The notes under the pieces are model-generated. The model did not search any database, had not been told where the DNA came from, and was given only the letters and a program-made list of their open reading frames with translations. 64,000 nucleotides of DNA from positions 96,001 to 160,000 of the forward strand of contig CAVVUN010000015.1 of NCBI GenBank assembly GCA_963751455.1, read 5' to 3'. The position numbers and the translations under genes were made by a program. The DNA is from Nitrospirota bacterium. Its GTDB lineage: Bacteria; Nitrospirota; UBA9217. This document shows positions 180 to 62,900 of the stretch, piece after piece; position 1 is the stretch's first letter, and each line of letters begins with the position of its first letter.

Positions 180-259
180 GTTTGTTTGGTTTGTCTGGTT
201 AATTTGGTTTGTCGGGTTAGAACCAAACAAACTAAACAAGCACAATAACCAAGTAAACC
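180..259. repeat. 9-nt-period tandem repeat followed by its inverse (hairpin)
   Basis: gtttgtttg gtttgtctg gttaatttg gtttgtcgg gtt, then aaccaaaca aactaaaca agcacaata accaagtaa acc. Confidence 0.85.
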
Positions 260-287
260 GAAATGGAATGTGGAGTTCAGAGTGCAA

Positions 288-1394
288 ATGAGACTGGACC
301 ACAAGGGACACTATGACGCGACACTTCTCTTCACGATCCTGTCGCTGCTCGTAATCAGCGTCGTCATGGTGTACAGTTCAAGCAGCGTCGTAGCGCTCAC
401 CGCCTATGATGACCCGGCTTTTTTCATGAAGCGCCAACTTCTGTGGGCGGTGCTCGGGCTCGGCGCCATGGCCGTGAGCATGCGCATAGACCATAGGGTG
501 CTTGCCGACCAGCGGCTCGTGATCGCGCTCGTTGTCGTCTGCCTGCTGCTGCTCGGGATGACCCTCATTCCCGGAGTCGGCAGAATGGCGAACGGGTCAA
601 GGCGCTGGCTTCGCCTGGGGATCCTTTCATTTCAGCCCTCGGAATTAGCAAAGCTCGGGCTTGTGGTCTATATGAGCTACTTCATAGCGAAAAAGGGAGA
701 GCGCATTCGTGACTTCATGAACGGACTGGTGCCGGCTTACGTGGTTTCGGCCGTCTTCCTCGGAGTCGTTATACTTCAGCCTGATTTCGGCGCCGGCATG
801 ACGCTTGCCGCGGTCGTAGGAATCATGCTGTTCGCAGGAGGCGCGAACCTGCTGCATCTCGCGGGGACAGCTCTTGCGGCGCTGCCAATCGTTTTTTTTG
901 CTGTTGCGGGAAGCGCCTACCGGCTCCGCAGAATATTCGCGTTCCTCGACCCGTGGGGGGACCCGCATGGCTCGGGGCATCAGATCATCCAGTCGTTTCT
1001 GGCTTTCGGCAGCGGCGGTCTTCTCGGCCGCGGGCTTGGCGAAGGCAGGCAGAAGCTCCTGTTTTTGCCGGAACGGCATTCCGACTTTATCTACGCAGTG
1101 ATCGGCGAGGAACTGGGCCTTCTCGGTGCGCTTTCGGTGCTGGCGCTTTTTCTGATCCTTTTATGGCGCGGCGTTCGCACTGCACTGGCGAGCGGCGAGA
1201 CGTTCAGCCGAATGCTAGCACTCGGCATAACGCTCCTCGCCTGCATGCAAGGTATGATCAATATGGCTGTTGTGACCGGACTTTTGCCGACCAAGGGCAT
1301 TGCACTGCCGCTGGTCAGTTACGGCGGCTCATCGCTGATGGTCACGATGGCCGCGCTGGGCGTGCTGCTGAATATTTCGCGGGAAACGGCGTGA
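288..1394 (+). CDS. ftsW: Peptidoglycan glycosyltransferase FtsW (SEDS family)
   Basis: RRWLRLG, FQPSELAK, QPDFG, LPERHSDFI, LPTKG..LPLVSYGGSS motifs; dcw order; start chosen at ATG 288. Confidence 0.95.
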   Translation: MRLDHKGHYDATLLFTILSLLVISVVMVYSSSSVVALTAYDDPAFFMKRQLLWAVLGLGAMAVSMRIDHRVLADQRLVIALVVVCLLLLGMTLIPGVGRMANGSRRWLRLGILSFQPSELAKLGLVVYMSYFIAKKGERIRDFMNGLVPAYVVSAVFLGVVILQPDFGAGMTLAAVVGIMLFAGGANLLHLAGTALAALPIVFFAVAGSAYRLRRIFAFLDPWGDPHGSGHQIIQSFLAFGSGGLLGRGLGEGRQKLLFLPERHSDFIYAVIGEELGLLGALSVLALFLILLWRGVRTALASGETFSRMLALGITLLACMQGMINMAVVTGLLPTKGIALPLVSYGGSSLMVTMAALGVLLNISRETA

Positions 1395-1400
1395 AAAGAT

Positions 1401-1567
1401 ATTGCGGAGTGCGGATTGCAGCCTGCACTCGCGCGAGCACTGCTTAGACTCATTGTCGTACCATCTCGCTGAGTAAGGCTTAGACCCTTTGTCGACCATC
1501 GCACTGAGAAACGTGTGACGGGAATCAAGGACCTCATAAGCGCTGGCCGCAGGCGGATTGCGGAATG
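1401..1567. repeat. Heptamer (GATTGCG-type) repeat carrying a nested mini-element and a 100-nt insert
   Basis: Flanks match the copy at 4991-5062 (gcggattgcagcctgcactcgcgc ... cataagcgctggccgcaggcgga); 1435-1534 replaces the 4 nt ttcg. Confidence 0.85.
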
Positions 1568-1602
1568 AAAAACGAATTCAAAGAAGCAAAATCGGAAACA
1601 TC

Positions 1603-4990: not shown

Positions 4991-5062
4991 GATTGCGGAT
5001 TGCAGCCTGCACTCGCGCTTCGCATAAGCGCTGGCCGCAGGCGGAATGTGGATTGCGGAATG
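4991..5062. repeat. Heptamer repeat with a nested 39-nt palindromic mini-element
   Basis: gattgcg gattgc[agcctgcactcgcgcttcgcataagcgctggccgcaggc]g gaatgtg gattgcg gaatg. Confidence 0.85.
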
Positions 5063-6937: not shown

Positions 6938-7055
6938 CGGGTTAGCGTTGATTGGCAACGAGGCCCGTATCGTATTGAATGGCAACGGTAACGTGATCTG
7001 CCTGACACGAACGACGTGACCGTCTGACGGAACGGGCATCGTGACCGTCACCGAT
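6937..7055. repeat. Intergenic hairpin with hexamer (ACGGTA/ACCGTC-like) units; related to 42759-42872
   Basis: cgaggcccgtatcgta ... gacggaacgggcatcgtgaccgtca, versus cgaggcccgtttcgta ... gacgatacgggcttcgtaaccgtca at 42786-42870. Confidence 0.7.
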
Positions 7056-8317: not shown

Positions 8318-8418
8318 TGAAAAATGCAAATTGAAAATTGGAAATTGCAAAGCGAAGTGTTGAAAACATACAGCAAAGCGCGCGATTTCCAATCAACAAT
8401 TTCCAATGTTTTTGCAGT
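8318..8418. repeat. Heptamer (AAATTGC-type) tandem repeat plus degenerate inverse
   Basis: aaatgca aattgaa aattgga aattgca ... atttcca atcaaca atttcca atg. Confidence 0.75.
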
Positions 8419-8432: not shown

Positions 8433-9671
8433 ATGGACGATAATCTCGATTTTGGTTTCCAGGACATCATGGAATTTGTTGCGAACACGGGCAGCGGGGC
8501 GTCGGGAGATGCCCCATTACAGGAAACAGGCGAGGAGAGGAGGACTAACGGAATGTTCCAGTTTGCAGAAGAAAGGCTGCCTGCGGTCATCAAGGTGATC
8601 GGCGTGGGCGGCGGCGGGAGCAATGCCGTCAGCAGCATGGTTCAATCCGACATCAGGGGCGTGCAGTTCATCATTGTGAATACCGATATGCAGGCTCTGG
8701 AGCTTGCCCGGGCGCCGATCAAACTGCAGATCGGATCCAAGCTTACCTGCGGCAGGGGCGCCGGAGCAAATCCCGATATCGGCAGATCAGCTGCACTCGA
8801 GGACGCGGAAAAGATCAAGGCTGCCATGGCCGGCGCGGATATGGTATTCATTACAGCGGGGATGGGCGGCGGCACCGGAACAGGCGCGGCTCCTGTGATC
8901 GCAGGACTGGCGAGAGAGGTTGGGGCCCTCGCCGTCGGCGTTGTGACCAAACCGTTCAGTTTCGAGGGGATGACCAGGATGCATAAGGCGGAAGAGGGTA
9001 TCGCCGAACTCAAGAAGAGCGTGGACGCTCTCATCGTGATCCCGAATGAACGACTTCTTAATCTTGCTGAAAAGAAAACGACGCTCCTCGAATCCTTCAA
9101 GCTTGCCGACGACGTGCTCGGACAGGCTGTAAAAGGAATTTCAGATGTGGTGATGGTTCCCGGTTATGTGAACGTCGACTTTGCCGACGTCAAAACGGTA
9201 ATGTCCAGCCGCGGTCGCGCAGTCATGGGCACCGGCGTGGCCAAGGGCGAAAACCGCGCCATGGAGGCGGCCCAGAAGGCAATCGCAAGTCCGCTGCTGG
9301 AAGACGGTTCCATCAAAGGCGCCCGCGCCGTGCTTATCAACATAACCGGCGGGAACGACATGGGGATCTACGAGCTGAATGAGGCGTCGGCGATCATCAA
9401 GGAAGAAGTGGACCCGGGAGCGAACATTATTTTCGGCGCAGTGATCAACCCGGTCATGAGCGAGGAGGTAATGGTGACCGTGATTGCTACGGGGTTCGAC
9501 GAAGCGGGCGTCCATGAACGTCTGAAACGGCCGGTCAATCTGAAGGAATACATGAAGGTGGTGGAGAAGCCGAGGCGCAGGCAGGAGACCTTTGAGTTCA
9601 AGAATGACGCTCTCGGCATAGACCATGAAGACCTTGATAAGCCGACCTTTCTCAGGCGGCAGGCGGATTAG
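8433..9671 (+). CDS. ftsZ: Cell division protein FtsZ (alternative start at 8553)
   Basis: IKVIGVGGGG, GGGTGTG tubulin motif, NVDFADV, C-terminal DLDKPTFLRRQAD. Confidence 0.98.
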   Translation: MDDNLDFGFQDIMEFVANTGSGASGDAPLQETGEERRTNGMFQFAEERLPAVIKVIGVGGGGSNAVSSMVQSDIRGVQFIIVNTDMQALELARAPIKLQIGSKLTCGRGAGANPDIGRSAALEDAEKIKAAMAGADMVFITAGMGGGTGTGAAPVIAGLAREVGALAVGVVTKPFSFEGMTRMHKAEEGIAELKKSVDALIVIPNERLLNLAEKKTTLLESFKLADDVLGQAVKGISDVVMVPGYVNVDFADVKTVMSSRGRAVMGTGVAKGENRAMEAAQKAIASPLLEDGSIKGARAVLINITGGNDMGIYELNEASAIIKEEVDPGANIIFGAVINPVMSEEVMVTVIATGFDEAGVHERLKRPVNLKEYMKVVEKPRRRQETFEFKNDALGIDHEDLDKPTFLRRQAD

Positions 9672-13080: not shown

Positions 13081-13168
13081 ACCGCGAAGGCGCTAAGGTC
13101 GCAAAGGGAAAACCTTAATTCGAATTTTTAGATCAATAAAAACTTCGCGTCCTTTGCGGCTTAGCGGT
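13081..13168. repeat. 9-nt-period inverted repeat hairpin (CGC(A/G)AAG family)
   Basis: accgcgaaggcgctaaggtcgcaaagg ... cttcgcgtcctttgcggcttagcggt. Confidence 0.85.
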
Positions 13169-13266: not shown

Positions 13267-14989
13267 ATGTCTCGGAAACTGAAAGAAAAAGCTGATGCCG
13301 TGCTTGCTACCGAGCGCGGTACTATTCATAAAGCGCGCGGGGCCGACGTCAGCATCGCGCTTGCCTACCCGAATACCTATCACGTCGGCATGTCGAATCT
13401 CGGAGTCCATCAGATATACTCGGTTCTGAACGCCCGGCCGGACACGGTCTGCGAACGGGTTTTTTTGCCTGATGATGAAGATATCGAGGAATATCGAAAG
13501 ACGGGTACAAAACTCTTCACGCTTGAGAGCAAGCGGCCCGTAAAGGACTTTGACGTACTCGCCTTTTCGGTCTCTTTTGAACAGGATTACCTGAATATTC
13601 TTCAGATACTCGACCTCTCCGGCATTCCCATCGATAAAAAAGACAGGACAGAGGACGATCCGCTTGTTATGCTCGGGGGCATCTGCTCCTTCTTTAACCC
13701 GGAGCCGCTCGCGGACTTCTTCGACGTGATTCTTGTCGGCGAGGGTGAAGAGATGGCTGGAGAATTCGTCGATGTTTATAGAAAGACCGACTCAAAAAAC
13801 CGGGAGGACGTGCTGCGGGCTGCAAGCATTGTTCCTGGTGTTTATGTTCCGGATTTTTATGATGTCATCTACGAAGGAAATATAATCAGAGCGGAAGAAA
13901 CGTGAAGCTTCGGCCCCTGACAGCATCACAAAACGCACTGTCAAGGACTTCAACCGGACGCCGGCGGCCAGCGTGATCCTGACTCCTGACACCGAATTCA
14001 GCGACATGTATCTTTCTGAGATAACGCGCGGATGCGGACGGCATTGCCGTTTTTGCATGGCAGGATACATCTATCTTCCTCCCCGGAATCTGAATATTGA
14101 GAGAGCAAAAGAACAAGCGGGAAAGGCAGACGATATTTGCGGGAAAATCGGCCTTGTTGGCGCGGCGCTGTCGGATTATCCAGACATAGTCGAGATGTGC
14201 GCCGCGATAGAGGGAGGGGTTTCAGTTTCGTCGCTCAGGGCGGATTCCGTGGGCGAGGCGTTGATTGACCGGCTGGCAAAGAGCGGTCATAAGACCATCT
14301 CCATAGCGCCGGAGGCGGGATCGGAACGGCTCAGGAAAGTGATCAACAAGGGAGTAACCGAGGAAGATATTCTTCGGGCTGCGGACATGATCTTCAGACA
14401 CGGCATACCAAACTTGAAGCTCTATTTCATTCTGGGCCTGCCCACCGAGACGCAGGAAGACGTAGAGGCAATCGGTTCGCTGGCCCGTAAAGTTAGGGAA
14501 GTTCAGCTCAAGCATGCAAGAGCCGCAGGGAAGATCGGCAGGATTACGCTCTCGGTTAATTCATTCGTTCCAAAGCCGTTTACGCCGTTCCAGTGGGAGC
14601 CCATGGAAGCCGTGGATCTTCTCAACAGGAAGATGCGCTTCCTCAAAAAGCAGGTCCGGAACATAGGCAATATGAATCTGATCCACGATCTTCCAAAATG
14701 GGCATATATCCAGGCGCTGCTTTCCCGCGGCGACCGCCGCGTTGGAGCGCTGATCCGCGTTGCTTTCGAGAAGCAAGGTGACTGGAAAGCAGCCGCTCGC
14801 GAGTTGGGCCTTGACATGGACGCTTACGTTCTGAGACGCCGCGATTTCAGCGAGGCGCTGCCCTGGGATTTTATTGACATCGGTGTGAGGAAAGATTATC
14901 TTAGAAACGAATACGAGCGGGCGCTGGAAGGCAAATTCACGCCGGTCTGCAGAGTAGGCTCGTGCAAGACGTGCGGAGTGTGTAAATAA
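13267..14989 (+). pseudogene. Radical SAM protein (TIGR03960-like), split by a frameshift at about 13886-13902
   Basis: 5' ORF (YPNTYHVGMSNLG, CERVFLP) stops at 13905; the +1 frame is open from 13886 and holds EITRGCGRHCRFC, APEAGSERLR, FVPKPFTPFQW and a Cys-rich tail. Confidence 0.8.
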
Positions 14990-15012: not shown

Positions 15013-15142
15013 TTGATAGATTCGTAAATGATCTCTGTCTCACACAAAGACACGAAGGCACGAAGAAAAAATGAATTTCAGGTCTGTTCTCTGTGGCTTT
15101 GTGACTTCGTGTGAAAACAGATTTCTTAAGATTTTTTATCAA
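15013..15142. repeat. 9-nt-period hairpin (CAC(A/G)AAG family, 15040-15114) inside an outer imperfect inverted repeat
   Basis: tcacacaaagacacgaaggcacgaag ... ctgtggctttgtgacttcgtgtga; outer ttgatagattcgtaa / ttaagattttttatcaa. Confidence 0.75.
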
Positions 15143-15937: not shown

Positions 15938-16038
15938 TCTCGCAAAGGCGCAATGGTCGCAAAGAAAAGCAAAAGAAATGGATCTTTATAAAATATCTTT
16001 AAAAGTCTTTCTTGACGTTCTTTGCGAGCTTTGCGAGA
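15938..16038. repeat. 9-nt-period inverted repeat hairpin
   Basis: tctcgcaaaggcgcaatggtcgcaaag ... ctttgcgagctttgcgaga. Confidence 0.85.
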
Positions 16039-16049: not shown

Positions 16050-16763
16050 ATGTCGATAGCGGACAACCTCAAGACGGTAACAGACAGGATCGCATCGGCA
16101 GCCAGGCGCTCAGGCCGGGACCCCTCGTCCGTGAAGCTGGTTGTGGTTACCAAGACTGTTGATGTTGACAGGATCCGCGAGGCAGTAGCAGCAGGTGGCA
16201 TGCTCCTGGGTGAAAACCGTGTCCAGGAAGCAAAGGACAAGATCGAAAAACTCGGACGGCTTGCCTCCTGGCACCTGATCGGGCATCTCCAGACGAACAA
16301 GGCAAAGTATGCGGTAAAGCTCTTTGACGTGATTCATTCCGTTGACAATATCGGCCTGGCTAAGGAAATAGACGTGCAAGCGGCCAGGATAAACAAGGTC
16401 CAGGATGTCCTGATCGAGATAAGCATTGCCGGAGAGGCGAGTAAGGCGGGGGTGGCGGCAGACCAGGCGCTGTACCTGGTGGCAGAAGCCGCAAAACTGA
16501 AGCACATTTCTATCAAGGGCTTAATGACCATGCCGCCCTTTTCGGACAACCCGGAAAACTCGCGTCCGTATTTCAGGAAATTGAAAGAATTGACAAGGCA
16601 GATCGGGAAAGAGAATCTCCCGGGTGTTTCCATGGATGAGCTTTCAATGGGAATGAGCGGCGATTTCGAGGTCGCCATAGAAGAAGGGGCGACCTTGGTG
16701 CGCGTGGGTACGGCGATATTTGGGGAGAGGTCAGGACATATGCAAAGTGAAAATTGCATCTAA
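16050..16763 (+). CDS. yggS: PLP homeostasis protein YggS
   Basis: VVVTK, GENRVQE, WHLIGHLQTNK, LSMGMSGDF, VRVGTAIFG. Confidence 0.95.
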   Translation: MSIADNLKTVTDRIASAARRSGRDPSSVKLVVVTKTVDVDRIREAVAAGGMLLGENRVQEAKDKIEKLGRLASWHLIGHLQTNKAKYAVKLFDVIHSVDNIGLAKEIDVQAARINKVQDVLIEISIAGEASKAGVAADQALYLVAEAAKLKHISIKGLMTMPPFSDNPENSRPYFRKLKELTRQIGKENLPGVSMDELSMGMSGDFEVAIEEGATLVRVGTAIFGERSGHMQSENCI

Positions 16764-16907
16764 AACCGTCTCTGTCTCACACAAAGACACTAAGGCACGA
16801 AGGGATGCCAGAAACAAATTATTTTCTTTGTGTCTTCGTGGCTCCGTGTGAATACCATATTTTGATTCATCTTTTCAATTTGCACTTTGCGATCTGCTAT
16901 TTGCAAT
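16740..16907. repeat. Nested repeats: heptamer hairpin enclosing a 9-nt-period hairpin (16777-16851)
   Basis: Outer atgcaaagtgaaaattgca / ttttcaatttgcactttgcgatctgctatttgcaat; inner left arm differs from 15032-15065 at one base. Confidence 0.8.
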
Positions 16908-17744: not shown

Positions 17745-17803
17745 GAAACCGACAGACAAGCGACGTGAAGCGACGGAACCGACGTGTAACAGAGAGGCGA
17801 GCA

Positions 17804-18178
17804 TTGGGGAACATTCAGAGCCATAAAGATCTGCACGTATGGCAGGATGCAATGGATGGAGCCATGGAGATTTATGCCATTACCAAAGCATTTCCCCCTG
17901 ACGAGAAGTATTCTCTTGTGGACCAAATCCGGAGATCGTCTCGGTCGGTTGCTGCGAATCTTGCCGAAGCGTGGAGAAAGCGAAGATATGAGGCAGCATT
18001 TAAGAGCAAGTTGAATGATGCAGAAGCAGAAGCGTCCGAAACGCAAACATGGATAGAAGTAGCGCTTCGGTGTTCTTATATTGACAAGCAAACTGCAGAT
18101 AAACTGGATCAGAAATACGAGCATATTCTGACGAGGTTAGTTTCCATGAGTCGGGATGTCGGGAATTGGACGCTGTAA
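17804..18178 (+). CDS. Four-helix-bundle protein (23S rRNA-IVP/TIGR02436-like)
   Basis: DLHVWQ, FPPDEKYSLVDQIRRSSRSVAANLAEAW, EASETQTW; TTG start inferred from AGAGG upstream. Confidence 0.9.
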   Translation: MGNIQSHKDLHVWQDAMDGAMEIYAITKAFPPDEKYSLVDQIRRSSRSVAANLAEAWRKRRYEAAFKSKLNDAEAEASETQTWIEVALRCSYIDKQTADKLDQKYEHILTRLVSMSRDVGNWTL

Positions 18179-18310
18179 TGAAAATCGACAAGTATCGAGT
18201 TGAAGCGACGAAGATTCGACGTAAAGGCGACTGGCTCGCGGCATGTCGTTGTCAGGTCGGTGCAAGTCATCTCTAGTCGATTTTACGTCGGCTTTACAAA
18301 GGGAGGATCA

Positions 18311-18620: not shown

Positions 18621-18801
18621 ATGGCCGCAAAGGGGCACAAAAAACGCCAGAAAAAGACGAACGGTAGTTGGACGCAGATAAAGGCGGAAAAGGCGGATCA
18701 AACGGATTATTGATGAAACAAGTATCCACCTGATTTTTCATAAGGAAAGTTTGATTTGTTATCTGTTTCTATCCGATGTTAACAGATTCTTCCGCGTCCA
18801 A
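18621..18801. repeat. Two adjacent short-period repeat elements (GC(A/G)GAT-type hairpin at 18668-18801)
   Basis: ttggacgcagataaaggcggaaaaggcggatc ... atctgtttctatccgatg...ttccgcgtccaa; also atggccgcaaaggggcacaaaaaacgcc, resembling 45843-45876. Confidence 0.7.
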
Positions 18802-18860
18802 ATGCTCTCGATAGGTTTTTTGAGGCTCAAAATAATTGGTTTTTTGCGGGAGGCATAAAT

Positions 18861-19676: not shown

Positions 19677-19790
19677 ACCGCTAAGAACGCAAAGGACGCG
19701 AAGGAAGGCAAAGGGCTTTGATCCTGGGTTTTGAAACCCAAAGAAAAGATTCTGATTCTGGTTTCCTGGCGACCTTCGCGCCTTCGCGGT
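19677..19790. repeat. 9-nt-period inverted repeat hairpin
   Basis: accgctaagaacgcaaaggacgcgaagg ... cctggcgaccttcgcgccttcgcggt. Confidence 0.85.
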
Positions 19791-21917: not shown

Positions 21918-24900
21918 TCAATGGTGATCAGATTGATCCACTGCTAAAGAGACAGAAGCTGTGCCATGTAATAATGCAGAATAAGTAACAACACCTGATA
22001 ATGGCATGCTTCCTATAAACCAGGGCCATTTTGACCAACCGTCGGTCAATCCCACCCACCATCTCCCATTTATATTGTGATTCCATATATCATGTAAAAC
22101 AGCTAGGGCATTTTGACCAGGAATGAAATTCGCAAGAAAACTAACAGGACCTCCTTCTTTTAAAGGCCACAGATAAAAAGGTACTCCACTTCCTCTATTT
22201 GAAAATCCCCAATTCATCATTGTGGTCCAGGTTACTGCCTCATCGTTCAGTTTAGGAGAAGCCCCGAGACCTGGAAGTGGATTTGGACCCTGCCCATTGC
22301 AATCATTACAGCCTGGCACATCAGTTAATGAGTTCTGATAAATCAATTCAGCGCCACTACTCAGGGCAGACATATAGAAACCATTCCAGAATTTGCCGCC
22401 CTGCGCGTGAGCAGATGCGCCACCAACAAGACCTGACGCAGCAACCTGTCCTGTATAACCTGCAATACTGTCAGTTTCCCAGTCCATGATATATGAACTT
22501 GCCATAGATGTTCCCCATGAAATTGCTGCAGATTTCAGCATATCATTGAAATGTCCTCCATAAGCGTATGCTTCATACGCACCAATTACTGCTGAACCAG
22601 CGCCATAGTACTCATCTCCTATATAACTAGCAGCTATATGTATCGCAGCATTATAATATCGATTATTGAAGTACTTCGCGTGTTTATTCTGCCTCCTATG
22701 CCCGGTTGGATCCGCATAGTTGACTGGATTGTTCCCCACATAAGAGTATCTGTTAAGTGATTGCGGATTAGTGAAATTAGGTACAATTGTATCCGCGGTG
22801 ATAAATCTACCGAGAACAGGATTATAGTACCGCGCATTGTAGTAGTACAACCCTGTATCTGCATCGAGTTCTTGTGACGTGTACTTGTGCGCCATTGATA
22901 CCGATCCAGTGTCCATACTGGTTGCCCCGAATGGCATGTATTGTATTTCTTCCATTTTATTGCCATTTCCGTTGGTTATCACCCTGTTGCTTCCCAGATG
23001 GTCTTGGTGGTAGTACATGACCTCAGAGCTCACCTTGTTAGCTACAAGGACTCCTCCTGCAAAAATATATTTCGAGCAAATGCCTGCTTTGCACTCGTAG
23101 TGCTTGCCGATATAAATATTTGTCCCGGTTGGTGCGGCCTTTTTTACTCGCTGGCCGTTGTAGTCGTATGTAAAGTTAATTGTCTTTCCATAGGCAGTGA
23201 CGCTCTTAGGCATGTTGTCTTCGTTATATACAATCATGCGGGTGCCGTCCGTGAGCATGTTGCCGTTGGGGTCGTAGTTGTAGGTCTTGCCATCGGGAAG
23301 TGTGGTTCTTACCGCATGAGGCTTGAGGCCGGTCTGGTCGTAGGTGTACGTTAGGCCCTCTTTTGAAGTGATGTTTCCGATTTGATCGTAATCATACGAC
23401 AGCGTTCCGTAGCTCGTGCTCTGGGCCTGCCACAAACGGTTCAGCTCGTCATACAGGAAAGCCTGAGAGCGACTTGAATCTATCGCATCAGTCATGGTTG
23501 AGATGTTGCCTAAATTGTCATATACATACGTCAGGTTCAAAAGCTGAGGCTCCGATGGCTTTCCAACCTGGATTGATTTAAGTCGATTGTTTCCGGGATA
23601 GTACTCAAAGGTTGTGTTAACGCCGTTGCCATAACTTAATATTCGTGCCTGTCCGAGGGGGTTATACTCATAATATTGCGCATAGGGAGTAGCATTGCTA
23701 CCTGTCACCACAGAAAGGACTTCCGCATCGTAAATATACGAAACAATCTCCTGATCTGGATATTTTATACTTGTTACTCTGTCAAGGCTATCGTAGCCGT
23801 ACTCCGTGGTATAGTTCACAGCAGTAATCGTCTTGACGGTCTTTTTTGGCCTTCCTTTAATGTCATAATGGTACACTATCTGGCCGGAACCGTCCGTAAC
23901 CTTTGAAAGCCTGCCCTTGCTGTAAGTGGACGTCGGCAGATCATAGTAATATGTGACCGGGACTGGGGCGAGCTTGTTCGTCACTCTGTTCAGCTTGTCG
24001 TAAATGAAACTGATAGTCTGCCCCTTGGCGTCTTTTTGGGATATTACATTGCCGTTAGCGTCATATTGATAGGTCCAGTTGCCGGCCTCGCCGTCATCCG
24101 TCGCGCTGCTCATGTCGGGATCATGCATAAAGGTTTTCCTGCTGAGTGTGTCATAGCGCATTCGGGTCTCATTCCCTGCGGCATCGGTCACCTTCAAAAG
24201 GTTTCCGAGCACATCGTACTGATAAGTAGTCGTGGCATAAGGGCTCTCTATGCCTGTTGTGCAGTCGTTGAAAGTGCCTAAATATTCTTCGACCTTGGCT
24301 AACCGACCGAGGGTGTCCCTAGTTTCCCGCCTTCGGTGACCGTTTGCATCGATAGATACAGTTACACCGTCATTATAGCAGCCAAGGGTCACCGTTCCAT
24401 CCGGCTCGCTGACCCGAACATTACGGCCAAGGGCATCATAAGTGAATGTTTTCCAGCTAACAATATCGTCGATTCCCTCGAAATAGGGCAGAGAAGTTTG
24501 CAAAACAGTTCCCGTGGCATTATATTTCGTCACGGATCTAATAGTTTTTGTATCAGGACCGGTCTTTTCCACTGCGGCTGTTCTACCCATGCCGTCGAAG
24601 TATGACCAGGAAAAGAGCCCGGTTGATGTGTCTATCCTGACATGCTGCTCCCCGACAATGCCAAAATCAATATACGACCGGTTGATCCATCCTCCATCCG
24701 GCGTTGTGGTTTTTGTTGGACGTCCGAATACATCGTATTGTGACGTGGTCACAGCGCCGTTCGGATCGGTAATTTTCCTTACTTGCCCGTAAAGGCCGTT
24801 ATCCGAAGCAACCCCGTCTATGCCATAGTACTGGGTCAGGGTAGTATGCCCGAGCGGATTTTTCGCAGTCGTGGAAAATGTGTACGAATTGTCGTACATA

Positions 24901-27900
24901 AAGGTTGAAATATTTCCCTTCGGGTCCCGTGTGCAGGCGAGATTTCCGTAGGCGTCGTACGCCATGCGCACTGCCGGGTTCGTTCCTCCATCGAGCCAGC
25001 GTACAATACGAGTGAGATTGCCTTTCGTGGGCGGCTGGTTTTCGGGAGTCATTGCAGCAAACGTGCAGTCCACAGGCTCGTCATAATAGAATGTAGTTTC
25101 AGCCGTTTTGATGGTAGCGGTCGTTCCGCTATATATGGTCTCACTCGCAGGCAGGCTAAGAATCCATTTATCTGTATTCGGGAAATAGGTCCTTTCAACT
25201 CTACGGTCGTCAGTTGCATCGGTCACATCACCATAATGCTCTTCGCGCGTCACGTTGCCGTATGCATCGTAGGCGTAAATGCTCTTTGTCTCTCTGGTAC
25301 AAGCGTCGCCGTCGCAAAGATATGAATGGACCTCCTCCGGCGGATTGAAATAGGGCGTTCCGCTGCCGGCACTATATAGCGTTGTTGTTTTAGAATATTC
25401 CCGGCCTTGTGCATCGGTCAGGCGAGAATAGTAAGGCTTGCCTTTCATATAACCGTCATTGCCGGAAGGGTTGTCTACATAAAGCGATGGGTTTGCTATA
25501 TCGACTGTACCGGTTACATTGCCGCGGTGGAACCATGTCTCTGTTACGAGTTGCTCGCCGTCCGGCCCGGCTGGCCCGGTGACCGTCACGTGATTAAAGC
25601 CACGGAATTCACGTTCGCCGATATGATAGTACCCGCCGGAATAATTATACAGAGTGGTCGATTCTATCCCCATACATAGAGACGTTGTAGAATCATAATT
25701 TTCGCAGTTTTTAATGACGCTGAGCGTCTGTATGGGAAAGGGGAGCTGTGTGTTATTATATTGTGAAGAAGGCTTATATGTTATATTTGTATTCCCACCT
25801 ATACCGTTCAGAATATCTGAGACCATATTTACTGCATTACCTGACCCTACAGCTACAGATAGACTCGTATCTATGTTTATATGACCGACGTCGATTTTAC
25901 CGTCGCCGTTAAAATCTCCAAAATTGTACCTGCTTGCATCACCCCACCCCATGCTCCCCCACGGATAGCGGGCAGTAAATCGAGAACCCTTGGAAAAAAT
26001 AACCGATAACGTGCCGTCATTGATGTTAATGTTGAGCACATCACTCCTGCCATCTCCGTTGAAATCCCCCAATTTTATACGCCATGGGTCACCCCATCCA
26101 ACACCACCCCACTCAGCCGCCGGCTCAAACCCCGTTCCGTTCGATACGGCCACCAACAACGATCCGTTCACCTCGTCGATGTTAATAAATAGCACGTCCG
26201 TTTTGCCATCGCCATTAAAATCGCCCAACATGTGCCGTTCCGGATCGCCCCAGCCAGCATGTCCCCATGGTTGAGACGTTGATGAAGTTGTGAAACCGGT
26301 ACCCGTGGACAGAGCTACTGTCAAGGGACCATTCATTGACGGCTCGTCCAGATTTATGAAGAGCACATCTGTCTTACCATCCCCGTTGAAATCGCCCAGC
26401 ATGTGCCGTTCCGGATCGCCCCAGCCAGCATGCCCCCATGGTTGAGGTGTTGATGAAGTGGTAAAACTGGTCCCTGTCGACAGAGCCACTGTTAACGTGC
26501 CATCCATATTGATGAAGAGCACATCGGTCTTCCCGTCTCCGTTAAAGTCGCCCAGCATATGCCGTATCGGATCGCCCCAGCCGGCATGCCCCCACGGTTG
26601 AGATGTTGACGAAGTGGTAAAATTAGCGCCTGTGGAAAGAGCCACTGTTAAGGGACCATTCATTGACGGCTCATCCAGATTTATAAAGAGCACATCAGTT
26701 TTCCCGTCCCCGTCAAAGTCGCCCAGCATATGCCGTATCGGATCGCCCCAGCCGGCATGCCCCCACGGTTGAGATGTTGACGAAGTGGTAAAATTAGCGC
26801 CTGTGGAAAGAGCCACGGTTAAGGGACCATTCATTGACGGCTCATCCAGATTTATAAAGAGCACATCAGTTTTCCCGTCCCCGTCAAAGTCGCCCAGCAT
26901 ATGCCGTATCGGATCGCCCCAGCCTATTTCTCCCCAAGAGGTGGCCGGATCGAAGGAAGTATTTTCATCTGAATATTTTATGTTGATGGCGGGTAGAGCA
27001 CTGCCTTCGGTAATAGTCCCATTATCAAGAGAGGCATCTTTCCCATATTGCTGCACGGCTGACAGGATAGAGCGTTCGGTCGATGTACTAGGGGAATACG
27101 CTAATTTATACGCCCGGACGCGATTGCCACTGGCAATAACATCTATTGTTTTCAACCTGAAGGCAGTTCTTACCCGAAAATTAACGGTGTACATATCCGG
27201 AGCGTCGGTACGGGATTCAAGATGGAATTTGACGTAATTCGTAGTCGGTGTTCCATCCGTATTGGCTGTATAAGATATTTGATTAAGATAAATTTGTCCT
27301 TCATAAGCATGGCCCTGTACTTCCTTTGCATATGAGAACGTCATATAGTTGCCGTTTGTGTCTTCGACCGTATCCAAGCACCATTTGAAGACTCTGTTCC
27401 CGTTCGAAGGGTCATCTTGTTTAGGCGTAGCAGTTCCATACGCAGTTTTTCCAAAAGTAAACTTTGTTCCTTTTTTATCAAATACCTCCCAGTAATTCGG
27501 GCTGCCGTCTAGATTGACAATTTTCATTACTTTAAAAAAGACCCCCTCTATTTTTGCCCGATATTCGTTTTCGTTTACATTTACCAAATCCATGGTCGCG
27601 CCGGCGACGTTCAAGATATATCCATCAGTTTCGGTGTAAGACAAGCCATGTTTAGCGCTTCGCTCAATGGACCCTACTTCAAGTTCCCATCCGAACCCAA
27701 CCCAACTGTCTCCATTATTGCTTCTATATGTCAATGCAAGACCCGGATCCATGCCTTTTCGGCCGAAGGGCACCTCAATCGGGATCGAGTAAGACATGGT
27801 TCCGGTCGAAAGATCGGGCATAACTGTTCCACTGCCCGCGCCTCCGCTTAATCCAACTTTATATTTTGGTGCAGACTGGCTGCTGCCCGTATCATTGGCA

Positions 27901-27995
27901 AAAGCAGGTCTAAATAAGACTGCGATCAGAGAACACAAGCAGATTGAAAGAAAGACTTTAATCCAATCATTTACGTGAAAGAAAATGCGCCACAT
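21918..27995 (-). CDS. SpvB/TcdB-like, FG-GAP and YD/RHS-repeat protein with RHS core and about 260-aa C-terminal tip
   Basis: GGGGAGG RBS before ATG 27995; signal-peptide-like N-terminus; LALTY...GWEL, GDFNGDGKTD repeats, REFRGF, YD repeats, GLYYYNARYY, NPVNYADPTG. Confidence 0.92.
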   Translation of the reverse strand: MWRIFFHVNDWIKVFLSICLCSLIAVLFRPAFANDTGSSQSAPKYKVGLSGGAGSGTVMPDLSTGTMSYSIPIEVPFGRKGMDPGLALTYRSNNGDSWVGFGWELEVGSIERSAKHGLSYTETDGYILNVAGATMDLVNVNENEYRAKIEGVFFKVMKIVNLDGSPNYWEVFDKKGTKFTFGKTAYGTATPKQDDPSNGNRVFKWCLDTVEDTNGNYMTFSYAKEVQGHAYEGQIYLNQISYTANTDGTPTTNYVKFHLESRTDAPDMYTVNFRVRTAFRLKTIDVIASGNRVRAYKLAYSPSTSTERSILSAVQQYGKDASLDNGTITEGSALPAINIKYSDENTSFDPATSWGEIGWGDPIRHMLGDFDGDGKTDVLFINLDEPSMNGPLTVALSTGANFTTSSTSQPWGHAGWGDPIRHMLGDFDGDGKTDVLFINLDEPSMNGPLTVALSTGANFTTSSTSQPWGHAGWGDPIRHMLGDFNGDGKTDVLFINMDGTLTVALSTGTSFTTSSTPQPWGHAGWGDPERHMLGDFNGDGKTDVLFINLDEPSMNGPLTVALSTGTGFTTSSTSQPWGHAGWGDPERHMLGDFNGDGKTDVLFINIDEVNGSLLVAVSNGTGFEPAAEWGGVGWGDPWRIKLGDFNGDGRSDVLNININDGTLSVIFSKGSRFTARYPWGSMGWGDASRYNFGDFNGDGKIDVGHINIDTSLSVAVGSGNAVNMVSDILNGIGGNTNITYKPSSQYNNTQLPFPIQTLSVIKNCENYDSTTSLCMGIESTTLYNYSGGYYHIGEREFRGFNHVTVTGPAGPDGEQLVTETWFHRGNVTGTVDIANPSLYVDNPSGNDGYMKGKPYYSRLTDAQGREYSKTTTLYSAGSGTPYFNPPEEVHSYLCDGDACTRETKSIYAYDAYGNVTREEHYGDVTDATDDRRVERTYFPNTDKWILSLPASETIYSGTTATIKTAETTFYYDEPVDCTFAAMTPENQPPTKGNLTRIVRWLDGGTNPAVRMAYDAYGNLACTRDPKGNISTFMYDNSYTFSTTAKNPLGHTTLTQYYGIDGVASDNGLYGQVRKITDPNGAVTTSQYDVFGRPTKTTTPDGGWINRSYIDFGIVGEQHVRIDTSTGLFSWSYFDGMGRTAAVEKTGPDTKTIRSVTKYNATGTVLQTSLPYFEGIDDIVSWKTFTYDALGRNVRVSEPDGTVTLGCYNDGVTVSIDANGHRRRETRDTLGRLAKVEEYLGTFNDCTTGIESPYATTTYQYDVLGNLLKVTDAAGNETRMRYDTLSRKTFMHDPDMSSATDDGEAGNWTYQYDANGNVISQKDAKGQTISFIYDKLNRVTNKLAPVPVTYYYDLPTSTYSKGRLSKVTDGSGQIVYHYDIKGRPKKTVKTITAVNYTTEYGYDSLDRVTSIKYPDQEIVSYIYDAEVLSVVTGSNATPYAQYYEYNPLGQARILSYGNGVNTTFEYYPGNNRLKSIQVGKPSEPQLLNLTYVYDNLGNISTMTDAIDSSRSQAFLYDELNRLWQAQSTSYGTLSYDYDQIGNITSKEGLTYTYDQTGLKPHAVRTTLPDGKTYNYDPNGNMLTDGTRMIVYNEDNMPKSVTAYGKTINFTYDYNGQRVKKAAPTGTNIYIGKHYECKAGICSKYIFAGGVLVANKVSSEVMYYHQDHLGSNRVITNGNGNKMEEIQYMPFGATSMDTGSVSMAHKYTSQELDADTGLYYYNARYYNPVLGRFITADTIVPNFTNPQSLNRYSYVGNNPVNYADPTGHRRQNKHAKYFNNRYYNAAIHIAASYIGDEYYGAGSAVIGAYEAYAYGGHFNDMLKSAAISWGTSMASSYIMDWETDSIAGYTGQVAASGLVGGASAHAQGGKFWNGFYMSALSSGAELIYQNSLTDVPGCNDCNGQGPNPLPGLGASPKLNDEAVTWTTMMNWGFSNRGSGVPFYLWPLKEGGPVSFLANFIPGQNALAVLHDIWNHNINGRWWVGLTDGWSKWPWFIGSMPLSGVVTYSALLHGTASVSLAVDQSDHH
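26544..26923 (-). repeat. Near-perfect 171-nt (57-aa) tandem duplication within FG-GAP repeats
   Basis: 26550-26720 and 26721-26891 differ at one base; a third partial copy starts at 26892. Confidence 0.9.
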
Positions 27996-32131: not shown

Positions 32132-32202
32132 ACCACGGAGGCACTGAGTCACGGAGGAAAAGACATTACTGGTTTTCTCTGTGCTCTCCGTGTCTCCGTG
32201 GT
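32132..32202. repeat. 9-nt-period inverted repeat hairpin (CACGGAG family)
   Basis: accacggaggcactgagtcacggag ... ctctgtgctctccgtgtctccgtggt. Confidence 0.85.
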
Positions 32203-33681: not shown

Positions 33682-33771
33682 AGGGCATTGCAAATTGTAA
33701 AATGAAAATTGTAAACTGCATCGGGGGACTCGGGCATTAACAAAATGCAAATGTATAGCGAAGGAGGTGCC

Positions 33772-42758: not shown

Positions 42759-42872
42759 GGAACGAAAGATGACGGTAACGGCGTCGAGGCCCGTTTCGTA
42801 TGACGGTTACGTCGTTCATGTTATTTCCGTTACCGTAAGACGTTTGACGATACGGGCTTCGTAACCGTCAGA
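42759..42872. repeat. Intergenic hexamer-unit hairpin related to 6937-7055
   Basis: tgacggtaacgg...cgaggcccgtttcgt ... acgatacgggcttcgtaaccgtca. Confidence 0.7.
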
Positions 42873-44070: not shown

Positions 44071-44284
44071 CTAGTGTAGTGTCTCACAAACGACTGGTGT
44101 TATCATAGCGCGGCAGTAGGCCGCAGCCAAACTTGTAGGGCAAGGCTTTAGCCTTGCTGAAAGCGCCGGAACAGCAGCAACCCTAAAGGGTCGCCCTACA
44201 AATTCATCAGCAAATATTTATGCGAAGATAAGTTTTCGATGAGAAATCATCATAACACCGTCCATTTAAGAGTCACTACACCAG
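44071..44284. mobile_element. Three-layer nested MITE/REP element
   Basis: Outer ctagtgtagtgtctc / gagtcactacaccag; middle ggtgttatcat / atcataacacc; inner GTAG-REP doublet ttgtagggcaaggctttagccttgc / gcaaccctaaagggtcgccctacaa. Confidence 0.75.
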
Positions 44285-45787: not shown

Positions 45788-45979
45788 ATCATGCTACCTC
45801 GCAGCGTGGCCTTTGGACCCAAAGAAACGAAACTCAGTTAACATGGCCGCAAAAATGCGCAAGATGCGCAAAAAAAACAAGAGATAGGGAATTTCAAGCG
45901 ACATTGGATCCGCTAAGATTATTGCCGGGATTACTGCTTCTGCTTTTTCGTCCATCGTCCTTCGTCTATCCTCCCTCGA

Positions 45980-59489: not shown

Positions 59490-59530
59490 CGAGGCAATAC
59501 CTTAGACCGCTAATGCATAACAAAAGCGTC

Positions 59531-59601
59531 TCTCGCAAAGCCGCAAAGAACGCAAAGGAAACCTTATATCCTGGTTTTAACCCGAGTGACTGGACTTGCG
59601 A
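59531..59601. repeat. 9-nt-period repeat arm with eroded inverse
   Basis: tctcgcaaagccgcaaagaacgcaaagg ... cttgcga. Confidence 0.65.
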
Positions 59602-59676
59602 AAAACATTCTGGTTTTGTGCAAACTCAAGAAATCAACTCAATTTTAAGGTGATCCCAAGTAGAGGTTAATGTGAA

Positions 59677-60495: not shown

Positions 60496-60787
60496 GCGAA
60501 GTTGATAAAGAACTTTTACGATTGCGTCAACTTAGGATCATCTTGCAGAGTTTATCCTGAGTGTGGAGGATAAGGTTCATTACCTTCGTTCGGGATGACA
60601 GCACGAGCGGCCTAAATGACAAAACAGGCTGTTCTTGAGTTTATACGTGTGGCTGCGGGGGATTCTATTATAATTTTGCTGAAAAAATAGAACAATCAAA
60701 ATCCGCAGGGCCACGGAGAAGACAATTCCGCGGCCTTTTTTATTACCCGCTGCGGGCTGACCCCCGTTATTCGTTGAAGGAGGAAAC

Positions 60788-61213
60788 ATGAAGGATTCGT
60801 TGAAGCCAGGCATTGAGTCCGAATTTACGTTCCGTATTCCTGAATCCAAAACCGTACCCGCCTTGTACCCGGAATCTGCTGAATTCCTGCAGATGCCGCT
60901 GGTATTCGCTACAGGATTCATGGTCGGCTTTATCGAATGGGCCTGCATCAAAGCCATTAATCCCCATCTTGACTGGCCGCAGGAGCAGACGGTGGGCACT
61001 CATATCAATGTGTCGCATACGGCCGCAACCCCACCGGGAATGGCAGTAACCACGCTGGTAAAGCTCGTTAAAGTAGACGGCCGCCGTCTGCTGTTTGACG
61101 TTGAGACCCGTGATGAAGTTGAAGCGATCAGCAGGGGAACCCATGAGCGTTATATTATTAATAAAAATAAATTCGATGAGAAAATACGTGAAAAAAACAA
61201 CAGGAAAAAATAA
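60788..61213 (+). CDS. Hotdog-fold thioesterase, FlK-like
   Basis: VFATGFMVGFIEWAC (Thr/Glu), TVGTHINVSHTAATPPG (His), GTHER. Confidence 0.9.
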   Translation: MKDSLKPGIESEFTFRIPESKTVPALYPESAEFLQMPLVFATGFMVGFIEWACIKAINPHLDWPQEQTVGTHINVSHTAATPPGMAVTTLVKLVKVDGRRLLFDVETRDEVEAISRGTHERYIINKNKFDEKIREKNNRKK

Positions 61214-61248
61214 GCGTATTCTCATACCGGTTCAATCCTCAGGCCTGA

Positions 61249-62139
61249 ATGAATGAAAGCAGAAAGATAAAAGTGATCCTGGCACTCGGGACCCTCTACC
61301 TTGCCTGGAGTTCGACCTATCTTGCCATACGGGTCGCCCTGGAGGACTTTCCGCCTTTCTTTATCGCAGGCTTTAGGTACATGCTGGTCGGCGCCGGGAT
61401 TTATGTCTATTTGCGAAGCAAAGGCGTTCCAGCACCTGCTGCAAGGGAATGGGGCGGATCACTCCTCATCGGCGTGTTCCTGCTTCTTGGCGGCACTGCA
61501 GGCGTTGTGTACGCCGAGATGTGGGTGGGATCGGGCCTCGCGGCTCTCGTACTTGCAACCTCACCGCTTCTTACTGTGTTGTTTGCAGGTATTTGGGGAC
61601 ACCGGCCTGCCCGTAACGAATGGCTTGGAATGCTTCTGGGCCTGGCCGGGATCGTTCTGCTCAACATGGAAGGCGATCTGCGGGCGCATCCGCTGGGAGC
61701 AGCGCTTCTGATTGTTGCCTCGGCTTCGTGGTCCTTCGGTTCGATCTTGAGCCTGCACGTACCGATGCCGTCAGGAATGATGGCAAGCGCTTCGCAGATG
61801 TTTTCAGGCGGTCTGTTTGTGTTCATTCTAAGCCTAGTCTCGGGCGAACAATTACCGCTCGACCCCTCCCTTCGCGCGCTCGGGGCGCTGCTCTGGCTCG
61901 CGGTCTTCGGTTCGCTCCTCGGATATACTGCATATACCTATCTGCTGACGCATGTAAGACCTGCGCTGGCAACCAGTTATGCGTATGTAAATCCGACCCT
62001 GGCAGTACTGCTCGGAGTCTGGCTTGGCAACGAGCATGTTACAAAGACCAGCCTTCTTGCTATGCCGATCATTCTTTCCGGAGTGGTTCTGGTAATACTG
62101 GGCCAGAAGCGAGAGATACGGCCAAGGACGAAGGATTAG
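61249..62139 (+). CDS. EamA/DMT transporter (YedA-like)
   Basis: YLAWSSTYLAIR, SGLAAL, FGSLLGYTAY, SYAYVNP. Confidence 0.92.
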   Translation: MNESRKIKVILALGTLYLAWSSTYLAIRVALEDFPPFFIAGFRYMLVGAGIYVYLRSKGVPAPAAREWGGSLLIGVFLLLGGTAGVVYAEMWVGSGLAALVLATSPLLTVLFAGIWGHRPARNEWLGMLLGLAGIVLLNMEGDLRAHPLGAALLIVASASWSFGSILSLHVPMPSGMMASASQMFSGGLFVFILSLVSGEQLPLDPSLRALGALLWLAVFGSLLGYTAYTYLLTHVRPALATSYAYVNPTLAVLLGVWLGNEHVTKTSLLAMPIILSGVVLVILGQKREIRPRTKD

Positions 62140-62141
62140 TC

Positions 62142-62900
62142 AATTACAAGTGAAAATCTTTCAAAACAGAAAGAATATATTGACCGCGAAGACGCGAGGG
62201 ACGCCAGGAAACCGTAAAGCGTTTTTTCAGGTTTAAACTCCAGCGTCCAGTTTCGCCTTCCTCGCGACCTCTGTCTTGTGCCCAGCGTTTACGAGTGCCA
62301 AGCGCGAGTGCAGGGTACGCCTTGGCGGTTCAAAGGTTTTGTATCCGGCTTGTCCGGGTTAGGAACGAGGGAGGTACCGGAAATGAAGAAGAATGTTGCG
62401 ACCAGGTTAATTACAAGTGAAAATCTTCTCAAAACGGAAAGAATATATTGACCGCGAAGACGCGAGGGACGCCAGGAAACCGTAAAGCGTTTTTTCAGGT
62501 TTAAACTCCAGCGTCCAGTTTCGCCTTCCTCGCGACCTTTGCGCCTTGGCGGTTCAAAGGTTTTGTATCCGGCTTGTCCGGGTTAGGAACGAGGGAGGTA
62601 CGGGAAATGAAGAAGAATGTTGCGACCAGGTTAATTACAAGTGAAAATCTTCTCAAAACGGAAAGAATATATTCACCGCGAAGACGCGAGGGACGCCAGG
62701 AAACCGTAAAGCGTTTTCAGGTTTAAACTCCAGCGTCCAGTTTCGCCTTCCTCGCGACCTTTGTCTTGTGCCCAGCGTTTACGAGTGCCAAGCGCGAGTG
62801 CAGGGTACGCCTTGGCGGTTCAAGGGTTTTGTATCCGGCTTGTCCGGGTTAGGAACGAGGGACGTACCGGAAATGAAGAAGAATGTTGCGACCAGGTTAA
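62142..62900. repeat. Three-unit tandem array (about 267/224/267 nt)
   Basis: Units start aattacaagtgaaaatctt at 62142, 62409, 62633; units 1 and 3 carry a 44-nt insert (62274-62317, 62764-62807) absent from unit 2. Confidence 0.95.

What the first reader, a model, noticed from the sequence alone, without database searches (positions are those of the whole stretch)
180..62900. Window-wide family of intergenic hairpins built from short-period tandem repeats plus their inverse
Seen: at least 15 spacers share one architecture, 3-5 degenerate copies of a 6-10 nt unit, a spacer, then the reverse-complement units (some copies keep only one arm). The unit differs between sites. 9-mers: GTTTGTTTG (180-259), CGC(A/G)AAG (13081, 15938, 19677, 59531, 62183), CAC(A/G)AAG (15040, 16777), CACGGAG (32132), GC(A/G)GAT (18668). 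7-mers: GATTGCG (1401, 4991), AAATTGC (8318, 16740, 33687), GGACGAT-like (45945). 6-mers: 6937, 42759. They sit even inside the dcw and pgeF-yggU operons. They lack CRISPR spacers, classic REP footprints and poly-T tails. Inference: architecture conserved without sequence conservation suggests a mechanism that builds or spreads the structure, i.e. a class of non-autonomous element or RNA-processing signal.
Basis: partly seen in the sequence, partly recalled or inferred. Interest (0 to 1): 0.8.

Follow-up and report, generated by a model that had tools for sequence, protein, structure and literature searches.

The report
Gene-less copies of repeat-armed gene cassettes
The repeat-built hairpins between genes are real: they are gene-less forms of small cassettes that elsewhere enclose a four-helix-bundle or nuclease-fold gene, about a quarter of them sit next to transposon-type ends, and the rest likely spread with the help of the cassette proteins, which would make them a little-described kind of selfish DNA rather than RNA-processing signals.

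Summary
426 of 3,883 spacers in this genome carry a short-period arm plus its inverse, against 0-4 in shuffles. Periods are 7-10 nt. Units are not site-specific: they fall into about 13 families, and the same units bracket four-helix-bundle (PF05635; 7-mers) and GxxExxY nuclease-fold genes (8-10-mers). At its proC-yggT junction, 30 genomes show the full cassette, a decayed one, an empty hairpin of the same unit, about 20 with other units, or nothing. Relatives without GxxExxY have a median of 3 arm motifs, against 90 with it. 113 of 450 hairpins lie next to transposon-type ends; the IS1380-, IS66- and IS1182-like ones are MITEs with target duplications, and the IS1380- and IS1182-like ends have matching partner transposases here. 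No RNA-level signature was found (no G·U bias, no strand bias, few U-tails). That the cassette proteins move the hairpins is inferred, not shown. This scan reported the same class, including MITE riding, on other genomes; my paper searches found no description of it.

The parts
177..251 (.). 9-mer (GTTTGTTTG) two-arm hairpin, set inside an older single heptamer arm of the murD-ftsW spacer
   Evidence: z -3.3; same unit flanks the four-helix-bundle gene at G000:C9:376678; heptamer-only state in G004 and G023
1403..1576 (+). single heptamer arm (GATTGCG) interrupted by nested inserts at about 1418-1554
4991..5062 (+). single heptamer arm interrupted by a nested insert of about 40 nt (5002-5042)
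6950..7049 (.). member of a longer-motif family (not a 6-mer array), weak hairpin
8318..8410 (.). 7-mer (AAATTGC) two-arm hairpin, ftsA-ftsZ
   Evidence: z -4.1
13081..13168 (.). CGC(A/G)AAG two-arm hairpin (GxxExxY-type unit)
   Evidence: (z -3.5)
15013..15142 (.). 8-mer CAC(A/G)AAG hairpin (15040-15114) inside eroded IS1182-like MITE ends; 130 nt against 132-133 nt for young copies
   Evidence: end match judged by eye
15938..16038 (.). CGCAAAG hairpin; same arms as the GxxExxY cassette at G000:C2:422931
16741..16907 (.). heptamer arms with a nested 8-mer hairpin (16777-16851)
17746..18297 (+). full cassette: left arm, four-helix-bundle gene, second left arm, right arm ((A)CGAC unit), between proC and yggT
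17807..18178 (+). four-helix-bundle gene (TIGR02436 107 bits; PF05635 114 bits; relatives 2gsc, 2rld); exact start codon uncertain
18654..18815 (.). old copy of the IS1380-like MITE carrying a 9-10-mer hairpin, nested in outer arms (18623-18849); left terminus eroded
   Evidence: (alignment to G000:C9:244645)
19677..19790 (.). CGC(A/G)AAG hairpin in a convergent spacer, just before tmRNA
32132..32202 (.). 8-mer CACGGAG hairpin; same unit flanks GxxExxY genes in L160 and L174
   Evidence: z -6.9
33687..33718 (+). single heptamer arm
42770..42870 (.). hairpin of the longer-motif family; the motif also lies before the truncated four-helix-bundle gene at G000:C9:369518
45948..45978 (-). single heptamer arm
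59531..59557 (+). single CGCAAAG arm, partner eroded
62140..62853 (+). three tandem copies of a hairpin inside an asymmetric envelope (right ends at 62363, 62587, 62853); an insert of about 44 nt is present in copies 1 and 3 and absent from copy 2

Best explanation
The hairpins are gene-less forms of small cassettes in which a four-helix-bundle (PF05635) gene or a GxxExxY nuclease-fold gene lies between inverted arms of 7-10-nt tandem units, and they likely spread as DNA, with the cassette proteins probably acting in trans on their own arm type. Shown: the shared unit vocabulary (7-mers mostly with four-helix-bundle genes, 8-10-mers with GxxExxY genes); the full / decayed / empty / replaced series at one junction; the co-occurrence of genes and arms across genomes; and a second route of spread inside IS1380-, IS66- and IS1182-type MITE ends with target duplications. 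Inferred: empties arise by loss of the gene (for the window cassette, by recombination between its two direct left arms); the units are read as a sequence code by protein rather than acting as a precisely paired stem; envelope-free copies insert without a target duplication, most likely by a cut at or near an arm or junction followed by repair from another copy; occupied junctions then act as tolerated landing sites, which gives the nesting.
For: Chance excluded. The 8 GxxExxY loci of this genome that I viewed show inverted arms by eye, with units matching empty window hairpins. Formal inverted-bracket score of 22 or more: 53 of 5,422 genes overall, 12 of 30 GxxExxY loci and 17 of 30 four-helix-bundle loci of relatives (10 of the 30 not located by my query); 17 of 19 four-helix-bundle arms are 7-mers and 16 of 20 GxxExxY arms are 8-10-mers. 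Arm unit clusters on the GxxExxY tree: 10 changes against a shuffled mean of 21.0, 0 of 200 as low. proC-yggT in 30 genomes: gene plus arms in G000, G074, G014 (in-frame stop) and G054 (contig cut), decayed in G071, empty same-unit hairpin in G079. 64 family genomes: 13 without GxxExxY have a median of 3 8/9-mer motif matches, 51 with it have 90; rho 0.67; also within genera g19 and g11. GxxExxY keeps invariant D67, E77, K79 and folds like PD-(D/E)XK nucleases. MITEs: exact target duplications in 82 of 128 IS1380-like, 35 of 51 IS66-like and 16 of 29 IS1182-like paired ends; partner IS with matching ends for the first and third.
Against: No activity of either protein on the arms is shown. The gene-arm correlation could reflect shared history alone, kin are not independent, and there are exceptions (G044, 65% complete: 146 motifs, no GxxExxY; G015: 37; G007: 223 heptamer matches, no four-helix-bundle gene; G054 has genes but almost no arms). 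Tree labels were set by eye and several clades are orthologous sites. 18 of 30 GxxExxY loci did not reach the formal bracket score. The 7-mer families have no young twins (0 at 80% or more), so their present mobility is not shown. In three mixed families own arms were more alike than cross arms. The fold match is modest (best E 6e-4, TM 0.51). The genome also holds 33 Y1 (HUH) transposase matches, which could be the movers.
Confidence: 0.6

Rival explanations
1. Relics and passengers only: cassettes and hairpins are moved by other enzymes (DDE transposases via MITE ends, HUH/Y1 transposases, host recombination); the cassette proteins do not act on the arms, and envelope-free hairpins are decayed cassette or MITE remnants.
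For: 113 of 450 hairpins lie next to envelope ends (78 of 161 9-mers), and most young twins are enveloped. Truncated and decayed cassettes exist. 33 Y1 transposase matches.
Against: 337 of 450 have no envelope end, including 138 of 141 heptamer hairpins. Cassette flanks in relatives show no IS ends by eye. Envelope-free twins at about 91-95% with unrelated flanks exist. Arms are nearly absent from most genomes lacking the genes, and the arm type follows the gene family.
Confidence: 0.25
2. RNA-level signal: the hairpins persist because RNase III-type cleavage or stabilisation tunes operon mRNAs, as for 23S rRNA intervening sequences.
For: Many fold well. They are depleted in divergent spacers (9 of 294 against 244 of 1,650 co-directional, length-matched, p=7e-10). 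The Coxiella intervening sequence carries a PF05635-type gene with tandem heptamers and is excised by RNase III (PMC4990558, passages).
Against: No wobble bias (334 against 357). Sense strand more stable in 164, antisense in 129 of 294 (p=0.24); U-rich tail in 18 of 375 sense against 26 antisense. Single arms occur in both orientations (53/52, 16/18, 55/42). Rapid turnover, and absence at the same junctions in relatives.
Confidence: 0.1
3. Each hairpin is built in place by slippage plus template switching, with no element behind it.
For: Units differ between neighbouring sites and many copies have no twin (314 of 450).
Against: A small recurring vocabulary shared across genomes and with cassette flanks; periods restricted to 7-10; arms not closer to each other than to other members in homogeneous families; arms scarce in gene-free relatives.
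Confidence: 0.05

Closest known systems
RAYT / REPIN (Bertels and Rainey 2011, PMC3116915; passages read)
   Same: A small gene next to its own repeat type; gene-less inverted doublets spread through spacers; repeat type varies with gene lineage.
   Different: The genes here are PF13366 and PF05635, not HUH Y1 transposases; arms are tandem arrays of 7-10-nt units, not single palindromes; the gene lies between the arms.
Ssn nucleases with NTS/SRM hairpins (Chenal et al. 2025, PMC11893778; abstract and Discussion read)
   Same: Small single-domain nuclease gene flanked by cognate hairpin repeats that also occur gene-less in hundreds of copies.
   Different: Ssn is GIY-YIG with shown ssDNA cutting; here the fold is PD-(D/E)XK or a four-helix bundle, arms are periodic, and no activity is known.
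ORF-bearing 23S rRNA intervening sequence (Coxiella; Warrier et al. 2016, PMC4990558; passages read)
   Same: PF05635 gene inside inverted termini, with tandem heptamers before the start codon.
   Different: Here the cassettes lie between protein genes, stems are degenerate, and no RNA-level signature was found.
IS-derived MITEs (IS1380, IS66, IS1182 types; family end and duplication rules recalled, transposase labels)
   Same: Terminal inverted repeats, 5-, 8- or 6-bp target duplications, no ORF, partner transposases in the genome.
   Different: Applies only to a subset; the interior is a captured cassette hairpin, not a deleted IS body, and the autonomous IS ends lack the periodic arms.
Intergenic heptamer repeats of Xanthomonas, Nostoc and Beggiatoaceae (PMC4692102, PMC4679880; abstracts and passages)
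   Same: About four heptamer units, between co-directional genes and inside conserved operons; inverted pairs in Xanthomonas.
   Different: The passages I read propose G-quadruplex or translational roles and name no enclosed gene; here many unit families coexist and are tied to two gene families.

Membership tests
MITE (IS1380-like subset, incl. window 18654-18815) | terminal inverted repeats shared with an autonomous IS | tested here: met
   Four 504-aa transposase copies (PF13701 over cut-off; NCBIfam IS1380 119 bits, under its 180 cut-off); ends match the MITE over about 17 nt. The window copy has an eroded left end.
MITE (IS1380-, IS66-, IS1182-like subsets) | target-site duplication | tested here: met
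   Exact 5 bp in 82 of 128, 8 bp in 35 of 51, 6 bp in 16 of 29 paired ends. Of these, 32, 31 and 2 pass my periodic-arm threshold; the 51 copies of 164 nt have a more degenerate 10-mer arm.
MITE (IS66-like subset) | autonomous partner with the same ends | tested here: inconclusive
   One intact IS66 with an 8-bp duplication shares only part of the 12-bp end.
MITE (all hairpins) | IS-type ends and target duplication | tested here: not met
   337 of 450 lack envelope ends. In 314 envelope-free, twin-free elements: 5-mers 46 against 42.9 shuffled, 6-mers 16 against 10.2 (max 17), 8-mers 3 against 0.6 (max 3).
REPIN / RAYT | gene-less inverted doublet dispersed in spacers | tested here: met
REPIN / RAYT | cognate gene is an HUH Y1 transposase | tested here: not met
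   Genes between arms are PF13366 and PF05635. Whether periodic arms are enriched beside the 33 Y1 matches was not tested.
Ssn / NTS | GIY-YIG nuclease gene between the hairpins | tested here: not met
Ssn / NTS | site-specific ssDNA cutting at the repeat | not testable with these tools
   needs biochemistry
23S rRNA intervening sequence | PF05635 ORF inside inverted arms | tested here: met
   window 17746-18297
23S rRNA intervening sequence | location in 23S rRNA | tested here: not met
   The cassette lies between proC and yggT; the only Rfam match in the window is tmRNA.
23S rRNA intervening sequence | RNase III excision | not testable with these tools
   no sequencing run was listed
intrinsic terminator | U-tract after the stem on the sense strand | tested here: not met
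   18 of 375 sense against 26 antisense
IS91-derived element (asymmetric envelope at 62140) | same end beside an IS91 transposase | tested here: not met
   0 of 22 IS91 loci examined (of 30 fetched) matched within 6 mismatches; no PF04986 match in this genome, though that search rang in no control genome either.
PD-(D/E)XK nuclease (GxxExxY protein) | fold and D...ExK residues | tested here: met
   PF13366 133 bits; invariant D67, E77, K79 in 53 rows; Foldseek hits to LHK-Exo, Cas4, Hjc. Activity untested.

The most novel reading that the evidence does not exclude
GxxExxY and PF05635, two huge orphan protein families, are the trans-acting partners of a transposase-independent class of selfish DNA. 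Each protein lineage reads its own 7-10-nt tandem code and copies gene-less hairpins into operon junctions, and ordinary IS ends repeatedly capture those hairpins. This would give one origin for the long-unexplained bacterial heptamer repeats and a natural library of sequence-specific nucleases.
Probability: 0.35. Interest if true: 0.85.

Novelty: new variant of a known kind. Interest (0 to 1): 0.62.

Why it matters
It ties hundreds of unexplained intergenic repeats per genome to two very large protein families of unknown function (the GxxExxY search hit its ceiling of 7,998 scored relatives; PDDEXK_3 is listed as 'Unknown' in PMC3424549, passage). It gives matched protein-arm pairs for a direct binding or cutting assay, as was done for Ssn/NTS. 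The one-junction series and the MITE bursts show how such hairpins arise and multiply even inside cell-division operons.

Tried and rejected
RNA reads: none was listed; no evidence either way. Rfam: only tmRNA in the window. G·U bias, strand bias of folding, U-tails and single-arm polarity: none found. Target duplications for envelope-free elements: not clearly above chance. IS91 as mover of the asymmetric envelope: not supported; its ends were not adjacent to 25 Y1 loci or 9 other transposase loci checked, apart from one copy about 2 kb away; among 111 loci of other genomes no shared upstream ORF family appeared. The 10-copy IS1380 with a 4-bp duplication is not the partner of the 5-bp MITE. 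The all-gene bracket scan is noisy: 53 of 5,422 against 16 of 2,500 random pairings, mostly ordinary genes with complete hairpins on both sides, so it names no new cargo family. Remnants of the two gene families in spacers were found only at known broken cassettes and a few weak places. Paper searches found no description of these cassettes; the library lacks most subscription papers. A review by Haft (2015, recalled) and Elhai et al. 2008 were not held, so prior description there is not excluded. No supplements were read.
Full report
Setting. The window is G000:C15:96001-160000 of a 5.7-Mb genome in 15 contigs, probably of the Nitrospirota (inferred from the names of GxxExxY homologues). It holds the dcw cluster, the pgeF-yggS-proC-yggT-divIVA-yggU run and tmRNA. 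Gene models are from my own rough caller, so some spacer limits are off.

1. The observation. The arms are at the stated places. A detector for a 6-10-nt periodic arm with an inverted partner found 426 of 3,883 spacers, against 0-4 in six dinucleotide shuffles. Periods are sharply 7-10. Of 18 stretches folded, 9 have z of -2.6 or lower, 4 are weak and 5 are single arms. The '6-mer' sites belong to a longer-motif family. Two-arm elements occupy 12% of co-directional, 10% of convergent and 5% of divergent spacers; length-matched, co-directional against divergent p=7e-10, against convergent p=0.25.

2. The units are a shared vocabulary. The 450 two-arm elements fall into 13 clusters of 7 or more members. 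The genome has 9 TIGR02436 and 10 GxxExxY matches, and their flanks carry the same units as empty window hairpins: the arms of C2:422931 match 15938, C2:654134 matches 13081/19677/62183, C2:30548 matches 18668, C9:376678 matches 180, and C9:369518 matches 6937/42759 (by eye). The window itself has a four-helix-bundle gene with arms at 17746-18297. In relatives, 17 of 30 four-helix-bundle loci (10 not located by my query) and 12 of 30 GxxExxY loci pass an inverted-bracket score reached by 53 of 5,422 ordinary genes; arms are 7-mers in 17 of 19 four-helix-bundle cases and 8-10-mers in 16 of 20 GxxExxY cases. The detector misses two-unit arms that are visible. Arm unit clusters on a tree of 35 GxxExxY proteins (10 changes, shuffled mean 21.0, 0 of 200; labels by eye; three broken genes of this genome left out; orthologous sites inflate this).

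3. Turnover at orthologous junctions. In up to 20 relatives, arms were detected at murD-ftsW in 7 of 19, ftsW-murG 12 of 20, murB-ddl 11 of 18, ddl-ftsQ 4 of 15, ftsQ-ftsA 7 of 15 and ftsA-ftsZ 7 of 15, with differing units; others have spacers of a few bases. At proC-yggT in 30 genomes, the gene with its arms is in G000, G074, G014 (in-frame stop) and, cut by the contig end, G054; G071 has a decayed copy; G079 has a 136-nt empty hairpin of the same unit and G073 a degenerate one; about 20 carry other units (by eye); G058 and G055 have plain 50-nt spacers. The next junction, yggT-divIVA, is short in 25 of 29. The window cassette has a left arm on both sides of the gene, so recombination between them would leave the empty form (inference).

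4. Genes and arms go together. In 64 family genomes, an 8/9-mer arm pattern has a median of 3 matches in 13 genomes without GxxExxY and 90 in 51 with it (rho 0.67); a heptamer pattern has medians of 2 and 43 for four-helix-bundle genes (rho 0.46). Partial correlations: GxxExxY with 8/9-mers 0.53, four-helix-bundle with 7-mers 0.36, GxxExxY with 7-mers 0.09. Kin are not independent, and G044, G015, G007 and G054 are exceptions.

5. A second route: MITEs. 136 of 450 elements have a twin at 85% or more; heptamer families have almost none. Most twins sit in envelopes. (a) IS1380-like ends with exact 5-bp duplications in 82 of 128 pairs, mostly 164 or 174-177 nt; four copies of a 504-aa transposase have matching ends but no periodic arms. 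Window 18654-18815 is an old member. (b) IS66-like ends with 8-bp duplications in 35 of 51 pairs, mostly 166-169 nt; the one intact IS66 matches the end only in part. (c) IS1182-like ends with 6-bp duplications in 16 of 29 pairs, all 132-133 nt, matching a 575-aa multi-copy transposase and carrying several hairpin kinds; window 15013-15142 looks like an eroded member. (d) An asymmetric envelope without duplication: 44 right ends here, three in tandem at 62140-62853, and at least 120 exact matches in genomes of several phyla, with an arm upstream in 41 of 111 against downstream in 13. Its mover is unknown and IS91 was not supported. In all, 113 of 450 hairpins lie by an envelope end: 78 of 161 9-mers but 3 of 141 7-mers. 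The other 337 do not, and no clear target duplication was found in 314 envelope-free, twin-free ones.

6. DNA code rather than RNA stem. Sense-strand G·T and A·C appositions are equal (334, 357). Folding favours neither strand and U-tails are rare. Single arms occur in both orientations. In three homogeneous families an element's two arms are no more alike than arms of different members; in three mixed families they are, which subtype mixing can explain. No sequencing run was listed, so RNA processing is unsupported, not excluded.

7. The proteins. GxxExxY is PF13366, folds with pLDDT 89 and resembles LHK-Exo, Cas4 and Hjc, with invariant D67, E77 and K79. The window protein is PF05635, related to solved 2gsc and 2rld. 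Neither has a shown activity on the arms.

8. Verdict. Shown: a real family of gene-less hairpins sharing arms with two kinds of one-gene cassette, turning over at operon junctions, a quarter of them beside transposon-type ends. Inferred (0.6): the cassette proteins act in trans on their own arms and spread the envelope-free copies as DNA. It works like RAYT/REPIN or Ssn/NTS but belongs to neither, and only a subset are MITEs. My eight paper searches found related heptamer repeats and the Coxiella intervening sequence but no description of the cassette class.

Noticed in passing
window 1418-1554, 5002-5042, 62275-62318, 62765-62808; 118 sites genome-wide: A separate element of about 40 nt inserts into arms. 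It is present in copies 1 and 3 and absent from copy 2 of the 62140 tandem. 34 of 62 length-matched spacers holding it have an arm, against 531 of 1,772. It resembles the small dispersed repeats of Nostoc (recalled; paper not held).
   Followed up: partly
G000, IS1182-like MITEs (e.g. C1:5517, C8:194774, C15:1316388): Length is fixed at 132-133 nt although the interiors are unrelated hairpins; IS66-like copies likewise cluster at 166-169 nt. This suggests a spacing constraint or interior swapping.
   Followed up: partly
window 34379-34511, 44072-44284, 33136-33267: Three more spacers in which short inverted ends enclose other hairpin types (NTS/SRM-like, REP-like GTAGGG...CCCTAC, and a third); labels recalled, seen by eye.
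   Followed up: no
L266 (G049), proC-yggT spacer: The asymmetric envelope is inserted next to a TTAG inside a heptamer arm with no duplication, as HUH-type elements do; in the window its left end abuts the TAG stop of the yedA-like gene.
   Followed up: partly
G000:C3:340095: The core of the IS66-type MITE, loop included, occurs without IS ends, suggesting conversion of one hairpin by another.
   Followed up: no
G000:C2:422931 and L154, L158, L159, L175: At what looks like the same junction (judged from flanking protein ends), both arms read CGCAAAG in this genome and CGCAGAG in four relatives, within one GxxExxY clade.
   Followed up: partly
window 13267-14989: The TIGR03960-like radical SAM gene is in two ORFs here and in G011 but one ORF in G019, G002, G006 and G009: frameshift or long-read error.
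   Followed up: no
window about 8433-8553: A short conserved coding-like stretch (MDDNL..FQDIMEF) precedes ftsZ in most relatives: an N-terminal extension or small ORF.
   Followed up: no
window 21918-28067 (-): ORF of about 2,000 aa with 171-nt internal repeats at 26185-26924; not classified.
   Followed up: no
G000:C9:371270-371838: Seven copies of the longer motif at about 100-nt spacing, near a truncated four-helix-bundle gene.
   Followed up: no
G000:C2:30548-40461 and C12:8378-23564: Near-duplicate gene runs on two contigs, each with a GxxExxY locus; contamination is given as 5.37%.
   Followed up: no
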